Source: an uncultured delta proteobacterium (GTDB lineage: Bacteria; Desulfobacterota; Desulfobacteria; Desulfobacterales; UBA2156). From it: a DNA stretch of 46,685 nt. The stretch is taken from contig CAVTQK010000016.1 in assembly GCA_963736855.1 (NCBI GenBank), forward strand, positions 1 to 46,685, in the 5' to 3' direction. A model generated the notes under the pieces. The model was not told the DNA's origin, did not search any database, and worked only from the letters and a program-made list of their open reading frames with translations. This document shows, piece by piece, positions 1 to 9,149 of the stretch (the first letter of the stretch is position 1; every line of letters starts with the position of its first letter). A program made the position numbers and the translations under genes.

Positions 1-78
1 AAAAGGAATCACCACGCGCCGGTTCAACCGCAACCCGCGTAATAAAAATGTTTGCAGCGCCTGCGACTGGGAGAAGAT

Positions 79-869
79 TTGCCCGAAAAAATAGAAAAGC
101 CCTCGTACCTGGAACACCGCAAACGGCTGAAAAAACGTTTTGTCCGAACCGGTTTCAGCGGTTTTCATGATTACGAAGTTCTGGAATTCCTGCTGTATTT
201 TGCCGTACCGCGTAAAGACACGAAACCTCTTGCCAAAGCGCTGCTGGATCGCTTTGGCAGTTTCACTGCGGTTCTCAACACCGATATAAAGGAATTGCAG
301 ACAATTAAAGGCATCGGACCCCAGGCCGCCTTTTTTTAAAGGCTGTCGGCGCCACGGTCGGCTTTTATTTTGATGAAAAGGCAAGTCAGAAACATATACC
401 ATTTACCGATCTGAAACAGCTTGTGGAGTATTTCCGGGCAACCATCGGTGGGAACCCCAACGAGGTGATGCGTGTGGTTTATTTAAACAGCAGCAACCGC
501 CTGCTCTATGCTGAAAACTTAAGCGAGGGAACCGTGTCGGAAGCGGTCGTCTTTCCCCGTAAAATCGTGGAAGGAGCATTGAAATACCGGGCCACGGCGG
601 TTATCATCGCCCACAATCACCCGGGCGGACTGCCGGAACCGTCAGAAAACGATCATATCATGACCCGGAAAATCCGGGAAGCCTTGCAGACGATAAACAT
701 CAACTTGCAGGAGCATGTCATCGTAGCCCCGGAAGGCTTTTACAGTTTCCGGCAAAATGGGGAATTGGATGATGCTTGCGGAAGAGACAATACAGTGATA
801 AAATACAAAAACACGAGGTGGGTAAGGAACATAGCCGGTGCCGCGAAATTCCATTTTTCCCTCCTTTAA
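79..869 (+). pseudogene. radC: RadC / JAB-domain protein, split by a frameshift at a T7 run (~331-337)
   Basis: N-part HRKRLKKRF...YEVLEFLL...PRKDTKPLAKALLDRFGS and HhH motif IKGIG; C-part GTVSEAVVFPR, AHNHPGG, EHVIV. One extra T joins ORFs 52..339 and 423..869. Confidence 0.9.
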
Positions 870-906
870 AAGTAAGAGGAAGTAAACCCCTTTTTTTGGA
901 GATCAT

Positions 907-1121
907 ATGAAAGCAACAAAAGGAAGGTATCCGATCTGACGGTTGAAGAGCTTAAATCCGTCATTCATGAAGTCATTGCCGAAGATATGGAAACTTGGCG
1001 GGAAACTCTCGAAATCATGGCTGACCGGAAATTGATGAACCAGATCAGAGAGGCGGATGAAGACTGGAAAACAGGCAAGAAGAAGGCATACGTATTATGG
1101 AATGATCTGAAAAATGTTTGA
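907..1121 (+). CDS. Putative antitoxin (not in ORF track; apparent 1-nt deletion in A-run near 918-921)
   Basis: ATG at 907 after GGAG. Shifted frame reads KVSDLTVEELKSVIHEVIAEDMETWRETLEIMADRKLMNQIREADEDWKTGKK...WNDLKNV*, and overlaps the toxin start. Confidence 0.7.
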
Positions 1122-1386
1122 AATCATTGTCCACAGGAAAGCAGCCAGGTTCTTTAAGAATGCTGATGCCGCCACCAGGCACCGTGTTTCCGAAGCCTTC
1201 GATATCATTTCAAAAGATCCCCGATACCACACTCATATACAAAAGCTGAAAGGCGAACTGAAGCACATGTATCGTTTCCGTCTCGGCAATTTGAGAATCC
1301 TCTATGAAATTGAAGAAGATATTCAAACCGTCAGGATCAAAGCGATTGAAACGCGAGGCTCTGCTTATAAGGGCATCCCGGAATAA
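1114..1386 (+). CDS. Type II TA toxin, RelE/ParE family
   Basis: KLKGELKHMYRFRLGNLRILYEI...IETRGSAY RelE-type motif; 90 aa. Confidence 0.9.
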   Translation: MFEIIVHRKAARFFKNADAATRHRVSEAFDIISKDPRYHTHIQKLKGELKHMYRFRLGNLRILYEIEEDIQTVRIKAIETRGSAYKGIPE

Positions 1387-1402: not shown

Positions 1403-1891
1403 ATGGCGTTAGATCAGAATATGCCCACTGGATTGTACTGGCAGGGAAAAAAGACCGAGGTGGAGCGGATTGTTCTGCCTTTTCAGACTATCGAGACAGT
1501 CAACGAAAGCCGGGCGACGCGGGAAAAGGAGAAAAAGACCGGCTTTGACATGTTCAGGTCCGGGGTGGGCGATTCCTGGTACAACCGCCTGATCTGGGGA
1601 GACAACAAGTACATCATGGCCTCCCTGCTGGAGGAATTTGCCGGCAAAATCGACCTCATCTACATCGACCCGCCCTTTGCCACCGGCGCCGATTTTTCCG
1701 TCAAGATGGAAATCGGGGATGTGGAATGGACCACGGAGCCTTCGGCCATCGAGGACAAGGCCTACCGGGACACCTGGGGCTGCGGTCTGGATTTATACCT
1801 GCAGATGATGTACGAACGGCCGGTGTTAATCTGGGAATTCTTGTCCGAGCGTGGTGTGCTCTACCTCCATTATCAGAACAAATTGACCTGA
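1403..1891 (+). pseudogene. Site-specific DNA methyltransferase (N6/N4, Mod-like), 3'-truncated
   Basis: NRLIWGDN, KIDLIYIDPPF motif, AYRDTW. Homology stops at GVLYLH (~1870) where the repeated module begins; the SAM-binding part is absent. Confidence 0.85.
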
Positions 1892-2021
1892 TCATTGAAT
1901 TATCGGGAAAAATTTCCTGATAACTTTCCAAAAAAAGAGTATGAATTGCAGGAAAATTAAATCATTATCAGCATAAAATGAGCAACCATGTCAAGGATTA
2001 TCGGGTTTAGGAATGGCGGGG
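1869..2021 (-). repeat. Copy 1 of ~153 bp attI-bearing module (direct repeat of 7114-7267)
   Basis: ATTATCAGAACAAATTGACCTGAT...GGGTTTAGGAATGGCGGGG aligns by eye with 7114-7267, with about ten differences. Confidence 0.95.
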
Positions 2022-2084
2022 GCGTGGATTAAAACATTCCAGCGCCGATGAAAAAGCGGACGGTTGCGGAGTCGCCCCCCTCAC
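2016..2084 (+). CRISPR. Degenerate type I-C-like mini-array: 3' half repeat, 35-nt spacer, 5' half repeat
   Basis: GCGGGGGCGTGGATTAAAAC (2016-2035), spacer ATTCCAGCGCCGATGAAAAAGCGGACGGTTGCGGA (2036-2070), GTCGCCCCCCTCAC (2071-2084). Confidence 0.75.
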
Positions 2085-2199
2085 CAACCGGAATTTTAAG
2101 GGAAGCGCGGCTTTTGGTTCGCGCTTGCGTGGACCCTAAAACCGGGGTGGAGCCATCAACCGAAATTTGTCGAAAATGGAGAAGGCCTGCGGGATTGAG

Positions 2200-3716
2200 T
2201 TCAATCCGGCCGAGTGTTGCGGCATTTTCAACTTTCGCAATCCGCGATTCCATGAGGGACAGCTTCTTTTGCAGGTCCGTCAACCGAATTTCAAGATTTT
2301 GAAGTTTTTCCTGCTGGGTTATAATAAAGCCTCCTTTTCCTGCAAAGTCTGGTAAAGCCCTTGAATAGCCGACAGGGCAACGCACGTCCAAATCAACTGA
2401 AGCCAGATGGGTGTCGCTGCCGCCGACGCCGAAGCGGGAGCGAAAATCGCCGCCATTGGGCCGTATGGCGGATTCCGGCTGCTTGAGTTTGTAATTCCAA
2501 GAAGCGATCGGCAAGTTGACCAAACGCTTTAAGGTGTCGCGGCCGTCGATGGGAGTGATATTTTCTTTTTGGAGTTTTGATCACAGTTCGATTCCAAGAG
2601 CCGCTACCTGGGGCAAGGCGCGCGCCGACGAGAGCGATACCCGCCTGGTTTACACCGGTGACGAACCGGACTCCGCCCGAAGCACGGACGGCGGGAACCC
2701 GTGCTCCGCAACGGAGGCAAATTCCGCATTGCTTGAATCCGCGAATAGAAAACAACCGGTATGGTCGGGGCGTACAGCCGGCGTCGGCCTGCCGCCAACT
2801 GAAAGCACCGGCGGCGATATTGGAGTCTCCGCCCGGGACAGTGGCATAGGCACCGGTGGCCTGATTGGCGTTACCGCCGCCGATAGTCGGCATAGGCTGC
2901 ATCCAGTTCATCCTCATCGGCATCGCCGGCCTGATGTTGGCCCGCCCGCCGCCGATGGTGTTGCTTTAACTATCCGTAATTTTGTTGTTCAGGCCTCCGG
3001 CAATTGTTGAATCATGCTCTCGCCTGATTCCCGCCACCACCGGGGATCGATACCTCTCTGCCCCGCGCCTTGTTGGCAATCCCTCCGCCGATAGTCGCAT
3101 AGGCTTCGTCAGCGATATTGTAGAATCCTCCATGGATCGTGGAAGCAAAAGCACTTGCGGTATTATTCCCGCCGCCGCCGACAATGGAATGCCTGCCCAG
3201 GGCCTTATTACCGGAGCCGCCGCCGACAAAGGCGTACCCTTCCATGGCGCTGTTGGTAATGCCCCCGCCCACGACGGCATATCTCCCGCCGGCTGTGTTG
3301 CCATATCCTCCGGCAACCGTGCTGCTGTCGATCAGGGCGGTATTATAACCGCCGCCGCCGATGACACAACGCAGTCCAGGCGCCTGGTTTAAAAGGCCCC
3401 CGCTCACGGCCGCCAGATTCCCCGCTTCGTTGCCTATCCCTCCGGCAATAACGCCCGAATCGGCTCTGACGATATTCGGAAAAGACGACTGCCCTCCGCC
3501 GGAGATGACTGTTTCCTTGGCTCCGGCATCAATTTGATTCCCCGGAAAGCCCTGATTGATATTGAAGGAATCAGGAGACTGGTCTTTCTTTCCTGTCGAG
3601 TCAGAAACAACCTGAGCAGCCGGGATGGGCAACAGGACCGTGGCCAGAAAACAGACCGCGAAAAATGATTTCCGTTTTGTGTTTTGATGGGGCATGGATA
3701 GCCTCCTTATCTTCAA
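2200..3716 (-). pseudogene. Secreted Gly-rich repeat (GGGxxN-A) fibre/adhesin-like protein with C-terminal S74-type chaperone domain and coiled coil; multiply frameshifted, 3' end approximate
   Basis: Signal peptide, many (V/I)GGGxxNxA repeats, SFLFADS, VRASGGVRF, LAPGSGSW, LPIASWNYK...FGVGGSDTHLASVDLD, spread over at least four frames. Confidence 0.75.
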
Positions 3717-3779
3717 AAGCTGGCGTATTCGTGTTCGAACGTTTCCCCTGGTGTGTAAGGCTCCGTAGTTTCATGTGCC

Positions 3780-3877
3780 GGCTCACGGAAAGTTCAGTGG
3801 TCAAAGCATCCACTGGAGCGATTTGTCAGCGGTTACACTCAGTGGTGCGAAGCATCAACTGGAGCGATTTGTCAGCG
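3780..3877 (-). other. Degenerate attC site (3780-3831) with partial tandem duplication (3832-3877)
   Basis: Minus strand: CGCTGAC-AAATC-GCTCCAGT...ACTGAAC-TTTCC-GTGAGCC. R'' CGCTGAC is one mismatch from the complement of the cassette start GTTAGCG. Confidence 0.65.
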
Positions 3878-3934
3878 GCCATACGTCAGAAACATGCCAA
3901 ACTCGACCCGACCCAGACATCTGCTTCACTGCTC

Positions 3935-4630
3935 CTACTGGAAGCGTTCTTCCTTCCATGGATCGGCGGAGTTACTATAACCTTGGCTTTCCCAGAATCC
4001 GGGCTCATCGCGAGAGGTGACTTTGACAGCCTCCAGCCACTTGGCACTCTTGTAGAAGTAGCGATCAGGGATCACAACACGCACAGGAGCGCCGTGCGCC
4101 TGCGGCAGTTTTTCACCAAAGAAACTGTGCGCAAGGATCACGTTCTCCTTTCGGATCTCACTTATGGGAACGTTGCTGGTGTAACCTCCGGCGGCCTCAA
4201 AAATGACAAAACCTCCACTTCTGCGAGGCTTGACTCTATCCATGATTGTTGTCAGGCGAACGCCACTCCAGCTCGAATCCAGAAGAGTCCAGCCGGTGAC
4301 ACAGTGAATATCACAGATGATATGCACCTGGTCCAGGTTGAGCAGCTCTTGGTAGGAAAGGACGACCGGTCTTTCCACCTCACCATGGACGCGAAGGCTC
4401 CAGTTCGCAACAGTAGCGGTTCCAGGCGTGCCGCCCATATCCCGAATCTTTTCGATCGCCTGCTGCCCAGGAGGGAGACGGGGCCTGCCGTCCGGTCTGG
4501 TGTTGGCTGCCAGAGCGCGTTGCGCCGCGTCCGAGAGTTTAATGAAAGCTCCGGGCAACCCTATGCTCACTATAGTGCCGCCTGCTGCGGCCAGGAAGGT
4601 GCGCCTGGAGATCTTCTGGTCTTTTTGCAT
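3935..4630 (-). CDS. Tat-exported molybdopterin-dependent oxidoreductase (sulfite oxidase/MsrP-like)
   Basis: SRRTFL twin-arginine signal; RLPPGQ, DIHCVTGW, HGAPVRVVIP, YKSAKWL, GFWESQGY. Confidence 0.9.
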   Translation of the reverse strand: MQKDQKISRRTFLAAAGGTIVSIGLPGAFIKLSDAAQRALAANTRPDGRPRLPPGQQAIEKIRDMGGTPGTATVANWSLRVHGEVERPVVLSYQELLNLDQVHIICDIHCVTGWTLLDSSWSGVRLTTIMDRVKPRRSGGFVIFEAAGGYTSNVPISEIRKENVILAHSFFGEKLPQAHGAPVRVVIPDRYFYKSAKWLEAVKVTSRDEPGFWESQGYSNSADPWKEERFQ

Positions 4631-4740
4631 TGCCCCTCCTTTGTCAGTTGAGTCGGTTCCCGCCCCCTCGGGTCAGCCACAGTATCCAGGGTGATAGTGA
4701 GAGACAACGAGATGAGGGGCACCGCATTCTTCAGAACCTG

Positions 4741-4801
4741 CGCTAACGCTGAACTCAGCCGACGCAGCCTTTATGCGTTTAGCTGGAGTGACAGGTTATG
4801 T
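4741..4801 (-). other. attC site (61 bp)
   Basis: Minus: ACATAAC-CTGTC-ACTCCAGC...GCTGAGT-TCAGC-GTTAGCG; the TAA in R'' is the stop of the upstream ORF. Confidence 0.9.
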
Positions 4802-5092
4802 TTTTCTCGTTTCTTTTGGTTCAACAAATCTCCTGCTGAATTTCCTGATAAGCATGATGAAGAATGACACGATAATCATGGCAACAAAGGCTAACATCCC
4901 AACCAGTATGCCATTGGCAAAGAGCGCAATAACCATCTTGTAGCCGCAGTTTTCGGCACAGTTAATTAAAAAGGGCCACGAGGGAAATGTCAGCGCAAGA
5001 AAATCGTCGCGGATCGCAAAACCAAGAAACCCAACCACAATAATGTAAGCTATACAGAATATGAAAGCATATATAATGAATTTTCTAAACAT
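4796..5092 (-). CDS. Hypothetical membrane protein (gene cassette)
   Basis: Two hydrophobic segments, low GC; ATG lies within one attC R' (GTTATGT) and the stop within the next R''. Confidence 0.75.
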   Translation of the reverse strand: MFRKFIIYAFIFCIAYIIVVGFLGFAIRDDFLALTFPSWPFLINCAENCGYKMVIALFANGILVGMLAFVAMIIVSFFIMLIRKFSRRFVEPKETRKT

Positions 5093-5199
5093 AACGATGT
5101 TAATCAGCCGCGCCGGGTAAGCACCTCAGTCTTGATAAAGTCACCAACGTACTTGATGCTGCCACGTGGTCCGGTGTCGGGTTGAGCCGCACGTTATGG
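5089..5199 (-). other. attC site (111 bp)
   Basis: Minus: CCATAAC-GTGCG-GCTCAACC...GGCTGATT-AACATC-GTTATGT, directly after the toxin stop. Confidence 0.85.
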
Positions 5200-5200
5200 T

Positions 5201-5494
5201 CTAAATTTTTCGCTTTCGCCAATAATCTGGCTTTCTGTTGAGTTGCATGATGGCTATTATGAGTATTTCGCCAGCCTTTAGCTGATACACTACGCCGTAA
5301 GGAAAACGTCTGAGGAGGTATCTCCGGGTGTTTTGCGAGAGAGGAGTCCAGGCGAGAGGAAAGTCACATATGTTCTCTATGGCGAAGTGGACCTCTCGTG
5401 CGAATTCAAGCCCAAGACCCTCCTGACACGCGTCATAATACTCAACGGCGTCGAGGAGTTCAGCCTCTGCTTCCGGATGAAAACGGTATTTCAT
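5201..5494 (-). CDS. RelE/ParE family toxin
   Basis: FHPEAEAELLDAVEYY...TRRYLLRRFPYGVVY...IAIMQLNRKPDYW. Confidence 0.92.
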   Translation of the reverse strand: MKYRFHPEAEAELLDAVEYYDACQEGLGLEFAREVHFAIENICDFPLAWTPLSQNTRRYLLRRFPYGVVYQLKAGEILIIAIMQLNRKPDYWRKRKI

Positions 5495-5718
5495 TTCTTA
5501 AGCCTATCCTGCAGCTTGCGGAACACCTCTTCTCCGGGCACGGTTTCAACTTCCCCACTTTCTATCTCAGCTACTCTCCTTTCTGCCTCGATAGCCCACA
5601 GCTCATCTATGTCCTTGTGAGAAGGGTTGAGGCTTTCAAGGATCTTCACAACCAATTGAAGCCGAATCTCGATAGGGAGCGAGATCGCCTCGGATATAAG
5701 CTTATCTTTAGAAATCAT
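5491..5718 (-). CDS. Addiction-module antitoxin (TIGR02574-like)
   Basis: EAISLP...ILESLN...WAIEAERRVAEIESGEVETVPGEEVF; ATGA overlap with toxin. Confidence 0.9.
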   Translation of the reverse strand: MISKDKLISEAISLPIEIRLQLVVKILESLNPSHKDIDELWAIEAERRVAEIESGEVETVPGEEVFRKLQDRLKK

Positions 5719-5887
5719 GGGACTACCTCCAAAATGGGATGTTCATGGGCGATTATACATTCAAAATGAGCAGCCTGAAAACCTTTGAGCGGGAGGAGCA
5801 TTAAGAAAGACAACACCCGAGCTCTTTGACCACCCTACAGGGCCTGAAATACGGAGTGATCGCTCGGTGCACCGCATACCTCCTCAC

Positions 5888-5964
5888 CCATAACGCAGAA
5901 TTCAGCGGTTTGTGGGGCGTAGCGCAGCGAAGCCCCACAGATCCGTTGAAATGACAGGTTATAT
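5888..5964 (-). other. attC site (77 bp)
   Basis: Minus: ATATAAC-CTGTC-ATTTCAACGG...TGTGGGGC/GCCCCACA...CCGCTGAAT-TCTGC-GTTATGG. Confidence 0.92.
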
Positions 5965-6113
5965 GGCATTTTCTTCTTTCGCTTCCCTCCACTTCATTCT
6001 TTTTAAATTCCTCTATATATCAGGTATTGTTGATAACAATTTGTGTCCTCAAAACTCAAGGATAGGATAATAATCCATGAGTTCCAAATTATCGAAATAT
6101 TCATCTAAAGTCT

Positions 6114-6821
6114 TTACTTGGCATCTTCATACAGGTCCATATCGGGAAAATATTTTTTGGCGCATTCAGGACAAATACCATGACTAAATTCAGCATCAGA
6201 ATGTTTATGGATATATGATTCGATCTGACTCCAATACCCCTTGTCATCACGAATTTTCTTACAATATGAGCAAATGGGTAGAAAACCCCTCAATGTTTTA
6301 ACTTCTGATAGTGCCTTTTGAAGGGCCTCTATTAACTCCTCCCGTTGTTCCTCTACCTGTTTGCGTGCGGTGATGTCCAGCATGCTCCCGGCCACGGCGG
6401 GCTTTCCGGACAATTGGATTGTAGACCCTAAAATTTCAACATGGATTATTTTTCCGTTTTTCTTTATCCCCCGGAAGGTATAATTAACGGAGTTGACTTT
6501 CCCAGATATGCGCTTGCTGATCTGCTCTCGAACGACGTCTAAGTCTTCCGGGTGTACCGTTTGTCGAAAATGCATGTTATTGAGGCATTCCTCGACAGAG
6601 TAGCCTAAAATCTCCGCGAATTTCTTATTGACGTATGCGAAAATGCCGTCCTGGATGATATAAACGCCGGCCAGTGAAATTTCTGCAATGTCGCGAAATT
6701 TTTCTTCACTCTCCCGCAATTCTTTCTCCGCCCTCTTGCGCGCAGATTCAGTTTCCTCTAATTCCTGAACTCTTTGTTCAAGTTCTTCATAGGTATATTT
6801 TTTAGACACGATTATTACCAA
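6114..6821 (-). CDS. PAS domain S-box protein with C-terminal Cys-rich domain
   Basis: TYEELEQRVQELE, ESEEKFR, VHPED, DIT; C-terminal LPICSYCKKIRDDKGYW...FSHGICPEC. Confidence 0.9.
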   Translation of the reverse strand: MVIIVSKKYTYEELEQRVQELEETESARKRAEKELRESEEKFRDIAEISLAGVYIIQDGIFAYVNKKFAEILGYSVEECLNNMHFRQTVHPEDLDVVREQISKRISGKVNSVNYTFRGIKKNGKIIHVEILGSTIQLSGKPAVAGSMLDITARKQVEEQREELIEALQKALSEVKTLRGFLPICSYCKKIRDDKGYWSQIESYIHKHSDAEFSHGICPECAKKYFPDMDLYEDAK

Positions 6822-6936
6822 CTCTTCCTTTAATTTTCCGAGTTACGCTTACTTGCTTTCTTGATATTGATCAAACTTGGCAATACTGATAATATTTTCA
6901 ACTTTTATCCAGCTACATCCTTTGTTCGTTCGAGCC

Positions 6937-7030
6937 ATATAATGGCGAGCTGAGCGGCCGGCCGGTGAGCCGAGTTGCGCCGCAGGCGCGATGAAGGCGA
7001 AATCCGGTCCGCTCGAGCGTTTGGTTCCCG
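6937..7030 (-). other. Non-canonical attC site (94 bp; R'' CGGGAAC, R' ATTATAT)
   Basis: Minus: CGGGAAC-CAAAC-GCTCGAGCGG...CCGCTCAGC-TCGCC-ATTATAT; R'' is the exact complement of the cassette start GTTCCCG. Confidence 0.8.
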
Positions 7031-7101
7031 AGGCGCGCAGCGCCGAAGGCCAAACGCTCAGAGCGCAGCGCAGCTCGCCATTCCCGCGGCGCTGTGCGCC
7101 G

Positions 7102-7120
7102 CGGGAACCATTGATTATCA
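7102..7120 (-). other. Putative attI core site
   Basis: Minus: TGATAAT-CAATG-GTTCCCG, 7-5-7 geometry as in attI1 (CCCTAAA-ACAAA-GTTRRRY); lies at the head of the attC array. Confidence 0.7.
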
Positions 7121-7267
7121 GAACAAATTGACCTGATAATTGAATTATCGGGAAAAATTCCCTGATAATTTGCCAAAATAAAAAGTATGAATTGCAGGAA
7201 AGTGAAATCATTATCAGCATAAAATGAGCAACCATGTCAAGGATTATCGGGTTTAGGGATGGCGGGG
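7114..7267 (-). repeat. Copy 2 of attI-bearing module with multiple ATTATCRG boxes and candidate Pc promoter
   Basis: Six ATTATC(A/G)G/CTGATAAT boxes in both orientations; minus-strand TTGACA...GATAAT (19-nt spacer) facing the cassettes. Confidence 0.9.
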
Positions 7268-7288
7268 ACGAAGGGGCTCGAGCCTCTG
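7260..7288 (-). other. Degenerate tRNA 3'-end fragment (tentatively Asp-like)
   Basis: Minus: AGAGG-CTCGAGC-CCCTT-CGTCCCC-G-CCA has the spacing of T-stem/loop, acceptor strand, discriminator and CCA. Confidence 0.55.
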
Positions 7289-7300
7289 CTGGACTCAAGA

Positions 7301-7332
7301 GTCGCCCCCTGCGCGGGGGCGCGGATTGAAAC
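7301..7332 (+). CRISPR. Single full-length type I-C-like CRISPR repeat (32 bp)
   Basis: GTCGCCCCCTGCGCGGGGGCGCGGATTGAAAC: GTCG start, GCCCCC/GGGGGC hairpin, ATTGAAAC end. Confidence 0.85.
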
Positions 7333-7344
7333 CGAGGGGGCTAT

Positions 7345-7731
7345 TTAAATGACATCCGCGCCACGCTGAACGAGGAGTTCGCGCAAGATGGATCGGTGGC
7401 AGCGGGACTCCTCCCTGCAGTAGCAGCCGATGGAAAGATTCGTGTGATGAGAGAGCGCGGCGAGCAGATCCAGGTCTTTGCTCGCTTCAGGGGATTTCAT
7501 TTCCGCTAAAAACTTTTTCCTGAAGGCCATCCAGGAGTTTTCGTCCTCTGCGCCCAAGCCTTCCTTTAAAAGCACTTCCGAGGGGGACAAATTGGGGAAC
7601 CAAACATCGTAAAAGTTTTTTGAGGCAAACTCTTCTTTACGAACACCTCGCGGAGGGCGTCTGACGGTCCCGATTCGAAGTCCTTCCCCGTCTTCCCTGG
7701 GGCTTCCCAATCTGACGATTCTGATAGGCAT
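7345..7731 (-). CDS. DUF488 family protein
   Basis: EGLRIGTVRRPPRGVRKE...YDVWFPNLSPS...GCYCREESRCHRSIL; GAGGAG RBS before ATG 7731. Confidence 0.88.
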   Translation of the reverse strand: MPIRIVRLGSPREDGEGLRIGTVRRPPRGVRKEEFASKNFYDVWFPNLSPSEVLLKEGLGAEDENSWMAFRKKFLAEMKSPEASKDLDLLAALSHHTNLSIGCYCREESRCHRSILRELLVQRGADVI

Positions 7732-7976
7732 TTTCTCCTCAATCCACAAATGGAACAGACAGAACCCGGAAGGGATGTTTTGTCAGATCCAGGAAGCGGA
7801 TCAGATATTCCACCAGAAATGCGATTAGCCGTTTGGCATCGGACACTTTTTTTCCTCCCCTTAAAACAAAAAATCACGTAGGGGGCGTCGTGTCAAGGAA
7901 GATATCGGCAACTCCGCATTGACATCTATGCCCGCCGGTCGATATATGCCATGAAAATTTGCATCAAGGAGGGTTC

Positions 7977-9149
7977 ATGAGCGGATCCACCTACGACGTG
8001 GTGATCATCGGCGGCGGAGTCATCGGAAGCGCCGTGGCATACAACCTGATGCTCCTCGAACCCGGACTCAAGCCGGCCGTCTTCGAACGGGATCCTACTT
8101 ATACCCGGGCTTCCAGCACTTTGGGTCTGGCCAATATACGGGTTCAGTTTTCCTTAGCCCAGAACATCCGGATCTCCCAATACGCCATGGAGTTTTTAGG
8201 CCGGTTCGCCGAAGAGATGACGGTTCGCGACATCCGGCCGAACGTCTATTTCCGGAAAGAGGGGAACCTTTTCCTGGTGGATGAGAGCGGTCGGAAAACC
8301 GCATCTCAGGCCCTGGCCCTGCAGCAGGAGTTGGGATGCCGTGTTGACTGGTGGACTCCGGATAGGATCCGGGAGCGCTACCCCCTGTATGATCCGGCCG
8401 GGCTCGAGGGAGGAACTTTCGGCGCCGACGACGGCCACATCGACCCCTATGCCATGCTCATGGGGTATCGGGCCAAGGCCCGATCCATGGGGGCCGATTA
8501 CATTAAAGGGGAAGTCAAGCAAATCCTCGTTGACGGAAAACGGGTGACCGGTATCGAAACGGACAGCGGCAGCCGCGTGGCTGCCGGGGTTGTGGTTAAT
8601 TGCGCCGGCGCATGGGCTTCCGAAATTACCGCAACCGTTGGAATCCGGCTGCCGGTCGTTCCGGTCAAACGGCAGGTGTTCGTTTTGGATACGGCGGTCA
8701 AACCGGAATCCCCTTTGCCCCTGACCGTACTGCCGTCCGGGCTGTATTTCCGCTCCGAGGGAAAAGGCGCCATCGTTTTGGGTAAGTCCATGCCTGAGGA
8801 TCCGGTGGGGTATGACTTTACCTGGGATGACAAACGGTTCATGGATATCCTGTGGCCGGAACTGGCTGCTTTTGTTCCAAAATTTGATCGCCTCAAACTG
8901 ATGAGGGGTTGGGCCGGGTTGTATGCCGTCAACACGCTGGACGGCAATGCGATACTGGGGGAATGGCCCGAATTGAAAGGCTTCTTCCTGGCCAACGGAT
9001 TTTCAGGTCATGGCCTGCAGCAGGCCCCCGGGGTGGGCCGCTACCTTGCTGAAAAAATTCTGGGAAAAACCCCGGCGTTGGATCTTTCCATCTTCGATCC
9101 TGTCCGGATCCTGGAAAATCGCCCCGTCGATGAGAAAGGGCTTGTTTGA
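7977..9149 (+). CDS. FAD-dependent oxidoreductase (sarcosine oxidase beta/DAO family)
   Basis: DVVIIGGGVIG, VVNCAGAW, GWAGLY, NGFSGHGLQQAP. Confidence 0.92.
   Translation: MSGSTYDVVIIGGGVIGSAVAYNLMLLEPGLKPAVFERDPTYTRASSTLGLANIRVQFSLAQNIRISQYAMEFLGRFAEEMTVRDIRPNVYFRKEGNLFLVDESGRKTASQALALQQELGCRVDWWTPDRIRERYPLYDPAGLEGGTFGADDGHIDPYAMLMGYRAKARSMGADYIKGEVKQILVDGKRVTGIETDSGSRVAAGVVVNCAGAWASEITATVGIRLPVVPVKRQVFVLDTAVKPESPLPLTVLPSGLYFRSEGKGAIVLGKSMPEDPVGYDFTWDDKRFMDILWPELAAFVPKFDRLKLMRGWAGLYAVNTLDGNAILGEWPELKGFFLANGFSGHGLQQAPGVGRYLAEKILGKTPALDLSIFDPVRILENRPVDEKGLV

What the first reader, a model, noticed from the sequence alone, without database searches (positions are those of the whole stretch)
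1869..7332. Integrase-less cassette array bracketed by two attI modules, each joined back-to-back to type I-C CRISPR repeats
Seen: two diverged direct copies of a ~153 bp module (1869-2021, 7114-7267). The left end of copy 2 forms an attI-like core heading a minus-strand cassette array. Each copy's right end leads into I-C-like repeat sequence on the plus strand: half repeat/spacer/half repeat at 2016-2084 and a full repeat at 7301-7332. Known: intI normally sits divergently where the CRISPR repeats are here, and no intI or cas gene is in the window. Inference: the same attI-to-CRISPR junction occurring twice suggests a unit rather than chance. It could be a bidirectional attI/Pc plus CRISPR-leader platform served in trans, or a small mobile attI element targeting GCGGGG(A/G)CG sequences shared by tRNA 3' ends and I-C repeats.
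Basis: partly seen in the sequence, partly recalled or inferred. Interest (0 to 1): 0.9.

Follow-up and report, generated by a model that had tools for sequence, protein, structure and literature searches.

The report
Satellite integron inside dead CRISPR array
A gene-cassette docking site without its own integrase sits, in two copies, among the remains of a dead CRISPR array and has held different cassettes in related strains; such stand-alone docking sites prove common in related bacteria, but the CRISPR link looks like a local accident.

Summary
The sequence is as described. The 157-bp module (93.6% identical copies) is a real attI plus the DNA up to a TTGACA/ATGTCA overlap, where intI would start. 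The same attI family sits beside an intact intI on another contig; the genome has four intI-type matches and no cas genes. The I-C repeats are real relics: in a congener a cas1-cas2-leader-array ends at the same DUF488 gene. Contigs from other studies carry the module2-repeat-DUF488 junction, a module-half-repeat junction with another spacer, and different first cassettes breaking exactly at the attI crossover. So this is no misassembly, and the site has been used. The CRISPR link is lineage-local: 0 of 119 other attI-family loci and none of four other distinct module homologues lie near I-C repeats, and the junction pattern found nothing in GTDB. Copy 2 joins a tRNA-Asp 3' fragment, not a repeat. 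The broader result: 48 of 72 classifiable attI-family loci lack intI. Verdict: an attI-retaining CALIN (satellite integron) lodged in a decayed I-C array and duplicated locally; no joint integron-CRISPR platform.

The parts
1403..1868 (+). Truncated ORF, probably a DNA methyltransferase N-terminus (DPPF motif label recalled; no Pfam or NCBIfam hit), fused to the attI L box of copy 1
1869..2024 (.). Module copy 1: attI L box and accessory boxes (R box lost), AT-rich stretch, TGTCAA at 1989-1994 (TTGACA on the minus strand, overlapping ATG-TCA on the plus strand)
2016..2035 (+). 3' part of a type I-C repeat, overlapping the module end by 9 bp
   Evidence: contig in run X3 diverges exactly after 2035
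2036..2070 (+). 35-nt relic spacer, no credible protospacer found
2071..2084 (+). 5' part of a type I-C repeat (first 10 bases exact)
2029..3716 (-). Gene in pieces with Gly-rich repeats (ORFs 3012-3716, 2393-2923, 2029-2523); no family hit; not clearly a cassette
3804..3878 (-). Two 29-bp direct repeats that look like attC left arms (decayed attC; read by eye)
3935..4630 (-). Cassette gene: molybdopterin oxidoreductase domain (PF00174)
4741..4798 (-). attC
4796..5092 (-). Cassette gene: 98-aa hydrophobic ORF, no Pfam hit
5090..5196 (-). attC (read by eye; missed by the heuristic detector)
5201..5718 (-). Cassette: toxin-antitoxin pair (PF09720 antitoxin 5491-5718, PF05016 ParE 5201-5494)
5888..5961 (-). 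attC
6114..6821 (-). Cassette gene: PAS-domain protein
6939..7105 (-). ORF-less, strongly structured first cassette with nested inverted repeats; 88% identical elements in relatives' arrays
7106..7120 (-). attI simple site of copy 2 (R-box triplet at 7106-7108, 5-bp spacer, L box 7114-7120)
   Evidence: contigs of other runs diverge exactly left of 7106
7114..7270 (.). Module copy 2; TGTCAA at 7235-7240 (putative Pc -35 on the minus strand, former intI start on the plus strand; both inferred)
7260..7284 (-). 3' end of tRNA-Asp (att-core-like fragment; 19 of 20 and 23 of 25 to the gene on contig C17)
7301..7332 (+). Full type I-C repeat, the trailer-end repeat of the ancestral array
7345..7749 (-). 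DUF488-N3a gene, the fixed neighbour of the ancestral array

Best explanation
An integrase-less satellite integron (attI platform plus cassette array, a CALIN that kept its attI) lies inside the remains of a type I-C CRISPR array whose cas genes and leader are gone. Shown: the attI identity, intI genes elsewhere in the genome, the repeats as relics of an array next to DUF488, and different cassettes at this attI in related strains. Inferred: the module is an integron platform cut a few codons into intI, which keeps the TTGACA that could drive the cassettes; it reached the array attached to a tRNA-Asp 3' fragment, as on a tRNA-targeted island; one recombination across the 9-bp likeness between that fragment and a repeat (8 of 9) duplicated the module and made the module/half-repeat junction; a later deletion ending at the L box fused copy 1 to the truncated ORF. 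IntI made elsewhere (most likely the C24 enzyme, whose own attI is of the same family) adds and removes cassettes at copy 2. The repeats are passive.
For: Module bases 1-57 match the attI directly upstream of the intact C24 intI (80%; catalytic motifs seen). No Cas1 or Cas7 and no tblastn hit to any of G001's seven I-C proteins. G004 has cas1-cas2-like genes, leader, repeat-spacer-repeat, then DUF488, and G005's contig starts just where the repeat would end. X2 spans 7106-7983 and continues left of 7106 with other sequence; X5 likewise; X1 joins 5891 to 7106 (one contig, 27 letters on the short side); X2 has a full repeat within 275 nt left of 3838. Homologous modules without intI or CRISPR in G005, G002 (two) and a sediment contig. 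Of 80 attI-family loci with long flanks 48 are solo, 24 have intI or part of it, 8 are too short; 0 of 119 have an I-C half repeat. attC-like hairpins upstream in 9 of 43 solo, 3 of 15 intI-linked and 2 of 45 control stretches. Solo and intI-linked sites can be 88-100% alike for 84-185 bp and then break off, twice just past the intI start.
Against: The module/half-repeat junction recurs in run X3 with another spacer and another left flank, and the X5 contig ends exactly at 7267 where the two window copies fork: repeated insertion into repeats would give the same picture. The copies differ at 10 of 157 positions, which fits an old duplication or two separate arrivals. The left-hand product expected of a recombination at the repeat is not preserved, so the order of events is unproven. 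Cassette turnover could predate the loss of a local intI. No canonical -10 box sits at the right distance from TTGACA, and the promoter scan did not flag it. An alignment test of leader likeness was not discriminating: window segments scored 25 against the G001 leader, the two real leaders 23 against each other.
Confidence: 0.68

Rival explanations
1. A mobile attI-bearing unit carries a tRNA-Asp att core and is inserted by a tRNA-targeting recombinase that also accepts type I-C repeats as secondary sites through the shared GCGGGG core, so the two copies are separate insertions into one array.
For: Copy 2 abuts a tRNA-Asp 3' end exactly at CCA (19 of 20); copy 1 abuts a repeat through the same 9 bp; tRNA-Asp of G000 carries two further 3'-end duplicates; junction with a different spacer in X3. 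Precedent for a shift from tRNA to CRISPR-repeat targeting exists for Tn7-like elements (PMC11837452, passages seen).
Against: Only 1 of 77 other non-intI attI loci has a tRNA-end match of 17 of 20 or better, and it lies about 300 bp from the attI core; no module follows tRNA-Asp in the three relatives with a match; GTDB and viral junction scans empty; no reciprocal junction; solo modules have no fixed right end. The TniQ search was uninformative.
Confidence: 0.17
2. A bidirectional platform: the module is attI/Pc to the left and a CRISPR leader or promoter to the right, served in trans by IntI and Cas proteins.
For: Both copies point into repeats in the array's transcribed orientation; a TAAAAT/TAGAAT hexamer is conserved on the plus strand in module homologues; a different spacer follows the junction in X3.
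Against: No cas gene in a genome rated 100% complete; the adjacent repeat is a half repeat in copy 1 and the trailer-end repeat in copy 2; motifs shared by G001 and G004 leaders are absent; the hexamer is equally conserved in modules with no CRISPR; 0 of 119 attI loci near repeats.
Confidence: 0.05
3. A fully dead mosaic: an ordinary integron lost intI here, the attI is no longer used, and strain differences are old.
For: Nearby genes are decayed (split RadC, truncated ORF, gene in pieces, decayed attC); CALINs are thought to arise by intI loss (PMC4889954, passages).
Against: Strains about 94% or more alike over this locus differ precisely at the crossover point while the right flank is shared; copy 2 keeps all boxes; a cognate intI is intact in trans.
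Confidence: 0.1

Closest known systems
[quoted passage not shown] 2016, PMC4889954; passages seen)
   Same: At least two attC sites, no intI nearby, intI elsewhere in the genome; that paper lists intI loss, rearrangement and secondary-site insertion as origins.
   Different: This one keeps a full attI with accessory boxes, twice, and shows cassette exchange at it. The paper says attI is unknown for most integrons and was searched only for classes 1-3, so attI-bearing CALINs were not counted there.
Complete sedentary integron with attI simple site and direct repeats (G000 C24; description in PMC3146285, passages seen)
   Same: Same attI family, same 7-5-7 simple site, cassettes read away from the intI side.
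   Different: No intI: the platform stops about 25 bp after ATG-TCA, and beyond base 57 the spacer differs from C24's.
Orphan or relic type I-C CRISPR array (repeat as in G001 and G004)
   Same: 32-bp repeat, 35-nt spacer, same trailer neighbour DUF488 as in G004.
   Different: No leader, no cas genes, two repeats cut, and 5.2 kb of integron-type DNA inside.
CRISPR-array-targeting Tn7-like transposons of cyanobacteria (PMC11837452; passages seen)
   Same: A motif shared by tRNA 3' ends and CRISPR repeats links tRNA-targeting to array-targeting.
   Different: Those insert in spacers at a fixed distance, leave the repeat whole and encode TnsD; here the junction is inside the repeat and no transposase lies in the interval.
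IntI secondary-site (attG, off-target) recombination (bioRxiv 10.1101/2022.09.11.507474; PMC10127599; passages seen)
   Same: Offers a route to arrays away from intI and possibly to the junction at the L box of copy 1.
   Different: Those products carry attC cassettes without an attI platform; L-box crossover with a coding sequence was not described in the passages seen.

Membership tests
CALIN | At least two attC sites | tested here: met
   Two found by the heuristic (4741-4798, 5888-5961), a third read by eye; IntegronFinder's model not available
CALIN | No intI nearby | tested here: met
   No TIGR02249 match on contig C16; the contig begins 1.9 kb left of copy 1, so DNA beyond is unseen
Complete integron | attI simple site at the head of the array | tested here: met
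   7106-7120; same family as the attI beside C24 intI; divergence at the crossover in other runs
Complete integron | Adjacent intI gene | tested here: not met
Complete integron | Pc promoter driving the cassettes | tested here: inconclusive
   TTGACA conserved in 6 of 6 aligned module-family members but no canonical -10 at 16-18 bp; no RNA holder listed
Complete integron | IntI recombines this attI | not testable with these tools
   Only indirect: strain differences at the crossover
Type I-C CRISPR array | I-C repeat sequence | tested here: met
   Matches the repeats beside NCBIfam-confirmed I-C genes in G001; Rfam DR9 below gathering
Type I-C CRISPR array | Regular repeat-spacer array with leader | tested here: not met
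   One full repeat and two parts; shared leader motifs absent, alignment test not discriminating
Type I-C CRISPR-Cas system | cas genes in the genome | tested here: not met
tRNA-targeted integrative element | tRNA 3'-end duplicate at an element end | tested here: met
   7260-7284
tRNA-targeted integrative element | Own integrase and paired attL/attR | tested here: not met
   No integrase in 1869-7332 and no reciprocal junction
Array-targeting Tn7-like transposon | TnsD/TniQ in the genome | tested here: inconclusive
   PF06527 found nothing in G000 but nothing in the control genomes either

The most novel reading that the evidence does not exclude
Solo attI platforms are an actively spreading class of satellite integrons, and in this lineage the platform rides on a tRNA-Asp att core that a site-specific recombinase also joins to type I-C repeats, so a CRISPR array is repeatedly invaded and turned into a row of docking sites for integron cassettes served by IntI in trans.
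Probability: 0.15. Interest if true: 0.78.

Novelty: new variant of a known kind. Interest (0 to 1): 0.42.

Why it matters
The CRISPR link itself probably matters little. The by-product does: in one attI family, found mostly in records named as Desulfobacterota or Deltaproteobacteria, about two thirds of classifiable sites have no intI beside them, complete genomes hold three or four such sites, and here one shows different cassettes at its crossover point in related strains. If these sites are active, many CALINs are working satellite integrons rather than stranded remnants, which bears on the open question of how CALINs arise and is directly testable with the cognate IntI. I did not find this described in the searches (listings and abstract starts only for most papers; subscription journals and supplements not searched).

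Tried and rejected
Misassembly: rejected, since contigs from other studies cross the 7260-7332 and 2016-2035 junctions; no listed piece spans the whole stretch and the source reads were not examined. Expression: no RNA holder listed, so untested. Protospacer search: no exact 21-mer in viral contigs; best phage matches 81% at E 4, chance level; nothing credible in G000 or fetched loci. Copy 1's half repeat as a decayed tRNA end: rejected (best 14 of 20; spacer-length gap and 5' repeat part follow). Module in viral contigs or plasmids: no match. Order-wide loose pattern: 24 of 401 genomes, 27 matches; I read 10 of the non-window loci closely: one had an intI start after the TGTCAA, three had what look like intI remnants, three were solo attI-like, three looked like chance. 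G002:C136 match to the spacer region lies in a coding gene and is chance. Leader alignment test not discriminating. TniQ search uninformative. Literature search returned irrelevant papers (word-start matching) and was redone. The attC detector is a home-made heuristic that finds 1-2 of the 3 window sites, so its rates are lower bounds.
Full report
Observation. The window is contig C16 of genome G000. BLAST finds two copies of the module, 1869-2024 and 7114-7270, 93.6% identical over 157 columns, and no other full copy; only its first 50-57 bases recur, at C14:67248 and C24:202096. Copy 2 carries a full simple site on the minus strand (TGATAAT, five bases, GTT; 7106-7120). Copy 1 begins at the L box and is fused to a truncated ORF. 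One correction: copy 2 runs into the reverse complement of a tRNA-Asp 3' end (19 of 20, ending at CCA), and the repeat starts about 30 bp after the shared sequence ends.

What the module is. The C24 match lies directly upstream of an intact intI, so the left end is a true attI of a family used in this genome. Four TIGR02249 matches exceed the cut-off, none on C16. The right end holds ATGTCAAG: TTGACA on the cassette strand, ATG-TCA on the other. IntI genes of this family often start with ATGTCA (C24, L014, L067). In two locus pairs (L112/L129, one genome; L095/L177, two genomes of one named genus) a solo attI matches an intI-linked one until just past that start and then breaks off. I infer that the module is an integron platform cut a few codons into intI. 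Pc activity is unproven: no canonical -10 follows, and the scan did not flag it.

The array. Reading from copy 2: an ORF-less structured element, a PAS gene, a toxin-antitoxin pair, a 98-aa ORF and a molybdopterin oxidoreductase gene, separated by three attC sites and ending in two decayed attC arms. A gene in pieces fills 2029-3716.

The CRISPR part. G000 (rated 100% complete, 25 contigs) has no Cas1 or Cas7 match and no tblastn hit at E 1e-4 to any of the seven I-C proteins of congener G001 (Cas7). Of 12 family genomes only G000, G001 and G004 have the repeat. In G004, cas1- and cas2-like genes (read by eye), a leader and repeat-spacer-repeat are followed by the same DUF488 gene that follows 7332 here; G005's contig starts at the same point. 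So 7301-7332 is the trailer-end repeat of an inherited array whose front part is lost. The G001 and G004 leaders share GCGAAC and a TTCGC at -53, which the DNA before the window's repeats lacks; a local-alignment test did not discriminate.

Other populations. I laid 4 of the 22 listed runs, from four studies, all as contigs. X2 has a contig over 7106-7983 (49 differences) that crosses module, tRNA fragment, repeat and DUF488 and continues left of 7106 with other sequence; another X2 contig has a full repeat within 275 nt left of 3838. X5 has the module over 7106-7267 with other sequence beyond it, and ends at the base where the window's two copies fork (my reading of the strand). X1 has one contig joining 5891 to 7106, without the first two cassettes (depth 5, 27 letters on the short side). 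X3 has the module and half repeat (1871-2035) followed by a different spacer and preceded by a different flank. Position 7106 is the conserved R-box triplet. These results exclude misassembly, show cassette exchange at this attI, and show that the junctions are shared by near relatives.

Beyond the lineage. Homologous modules (about 70% identical) occur in G005 (once) and G002 (twice, 2.3 kb apart, with a further attI-like site between) and on a sediment contig; none has intI or a CRISPR repeat beside it (two of the three metagenome hits repeat the G005 sequence). None of the 119 has an I-C half repeat in its flanks (80 with up to 1.5 kb, 39 with 300 bp). Of the 80, 48 have no intI downstream, 24 have intI or part of it and 8 are too short. 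attC-like hairpins lie upstream of 9 of 43 solo and 3 of 15 intI-linked sites, against 2 of 45 control stretches (insensitive heuristic). In five genomes chosen for this check, the complete genome G401 has four attI sites, none beside its single intI-like gene, two of them in direct orientation 5,244 bp apart; G402 has three sites and one intI; G405 five and two; G403 one site far from its intI; G404 one site beside one of several. Only 1 of 77 non-intI loci has a tRNA-end match of 17 of 20 or better within 330 bp. Solo attI sites, and even paired ones, are therefore common, while CRISPR and tRNA junctions are not.

Mechanism. Most likely (0.68): a solo attI platform with its cassettes came to lie in an I-C array, attached to a tRNA-Asp 3' fragment; one crossover between that fragment and a repeat (8 of 9 bases alike) duplicated the module and made the half-repeat junction; a deletion ending at the L box removed the left array, the leader and the cas genes or followed their loss; IntI from elsewhere still serves copy 2. 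The order of these steps is inference. Rivals: repeated targeted insertion through the shared tRNA/repeat core (0.17; precedent in another element class, PMC11837452), a dead mosaic (0.10), a joint Pc/leader platform (0.05).

Literature. I saw matched passages of PMC4889954, PMC10127599, PMC9892861, PMC3146285, PMC11837452 and bioRxiv 10.1101/2022.09.11.507474 and 10.1101/2025.06.18.660453, not their whole texts or supplements. CALINs, their mobilisation in trans and their origin by intI loss are described there; attI was searchable only for classes 1-3. Searches listed no paper on an integron platform inside a CRISPR array or on multi-copy solo attI sites, judged from titles and abstract starts.

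Verdict. Real, lineage-stable and unusual in arrangement, but best read as an attI-retaining CALIN in a dead CRISPR array. New variant of a known kind; interest 0.42, most of it from the solo-attI pattern rather than the CRISPR link.

Noticed in passing
window 6939-7105; L014:1136-1312; L079:1060-1233: An ORF-less cassette with nested inverted repeats and ATT instead of GTT at its R' box is 88% conserved in relatives, first in the array at L014 and mid-array at L079/L081, so it moves as a unit; its left 69 bp are identical to an attC arm at G000 C9:672835.
   Followed up: partly
G000 C17:47620-49092; L218, L221: tRNA-Asp is followed by two duplicates of its 3' end with a small ORF between (GIY-YIG-like by recall); the same ORF follows the tRNA-Asp end in G004 and G002.
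   Followed up: no
G000 C14:67243 and C14:61028: A further solo attI of a second module type heads an array that runs towards a 20 of 20 tRNA-Leu 3'-end duplicate 6 kb away.
   Followed up: partly
G000 C21:744805-745752: An intI with an attC-like site upstream in the same direction and no attI of this family.
   Followed up: no
L082 (G002:C22:250-3330): Several attI-like sites in direct orientation within 3 kb, separated by toxin-antitoxin pairs and a repeated short A-rich element.
   Followed up: partly
L067, L065, L099, L104: Some attI sites of this family carry tandem expansions of the accessory boxes.
   Followed up: no
window 52-1386: RadC gene split by a frameshift and a ParE-type toxin with a small upstream ORF at the contig start, typical island cargo.
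   Followed up: no
window 4708-4713: Contigs of all four laid runs carry about 36-40 extra bases here, upstream of the molybdopterin oxidoreductase gene, so G000 has a small deletion.
   Followed up: no
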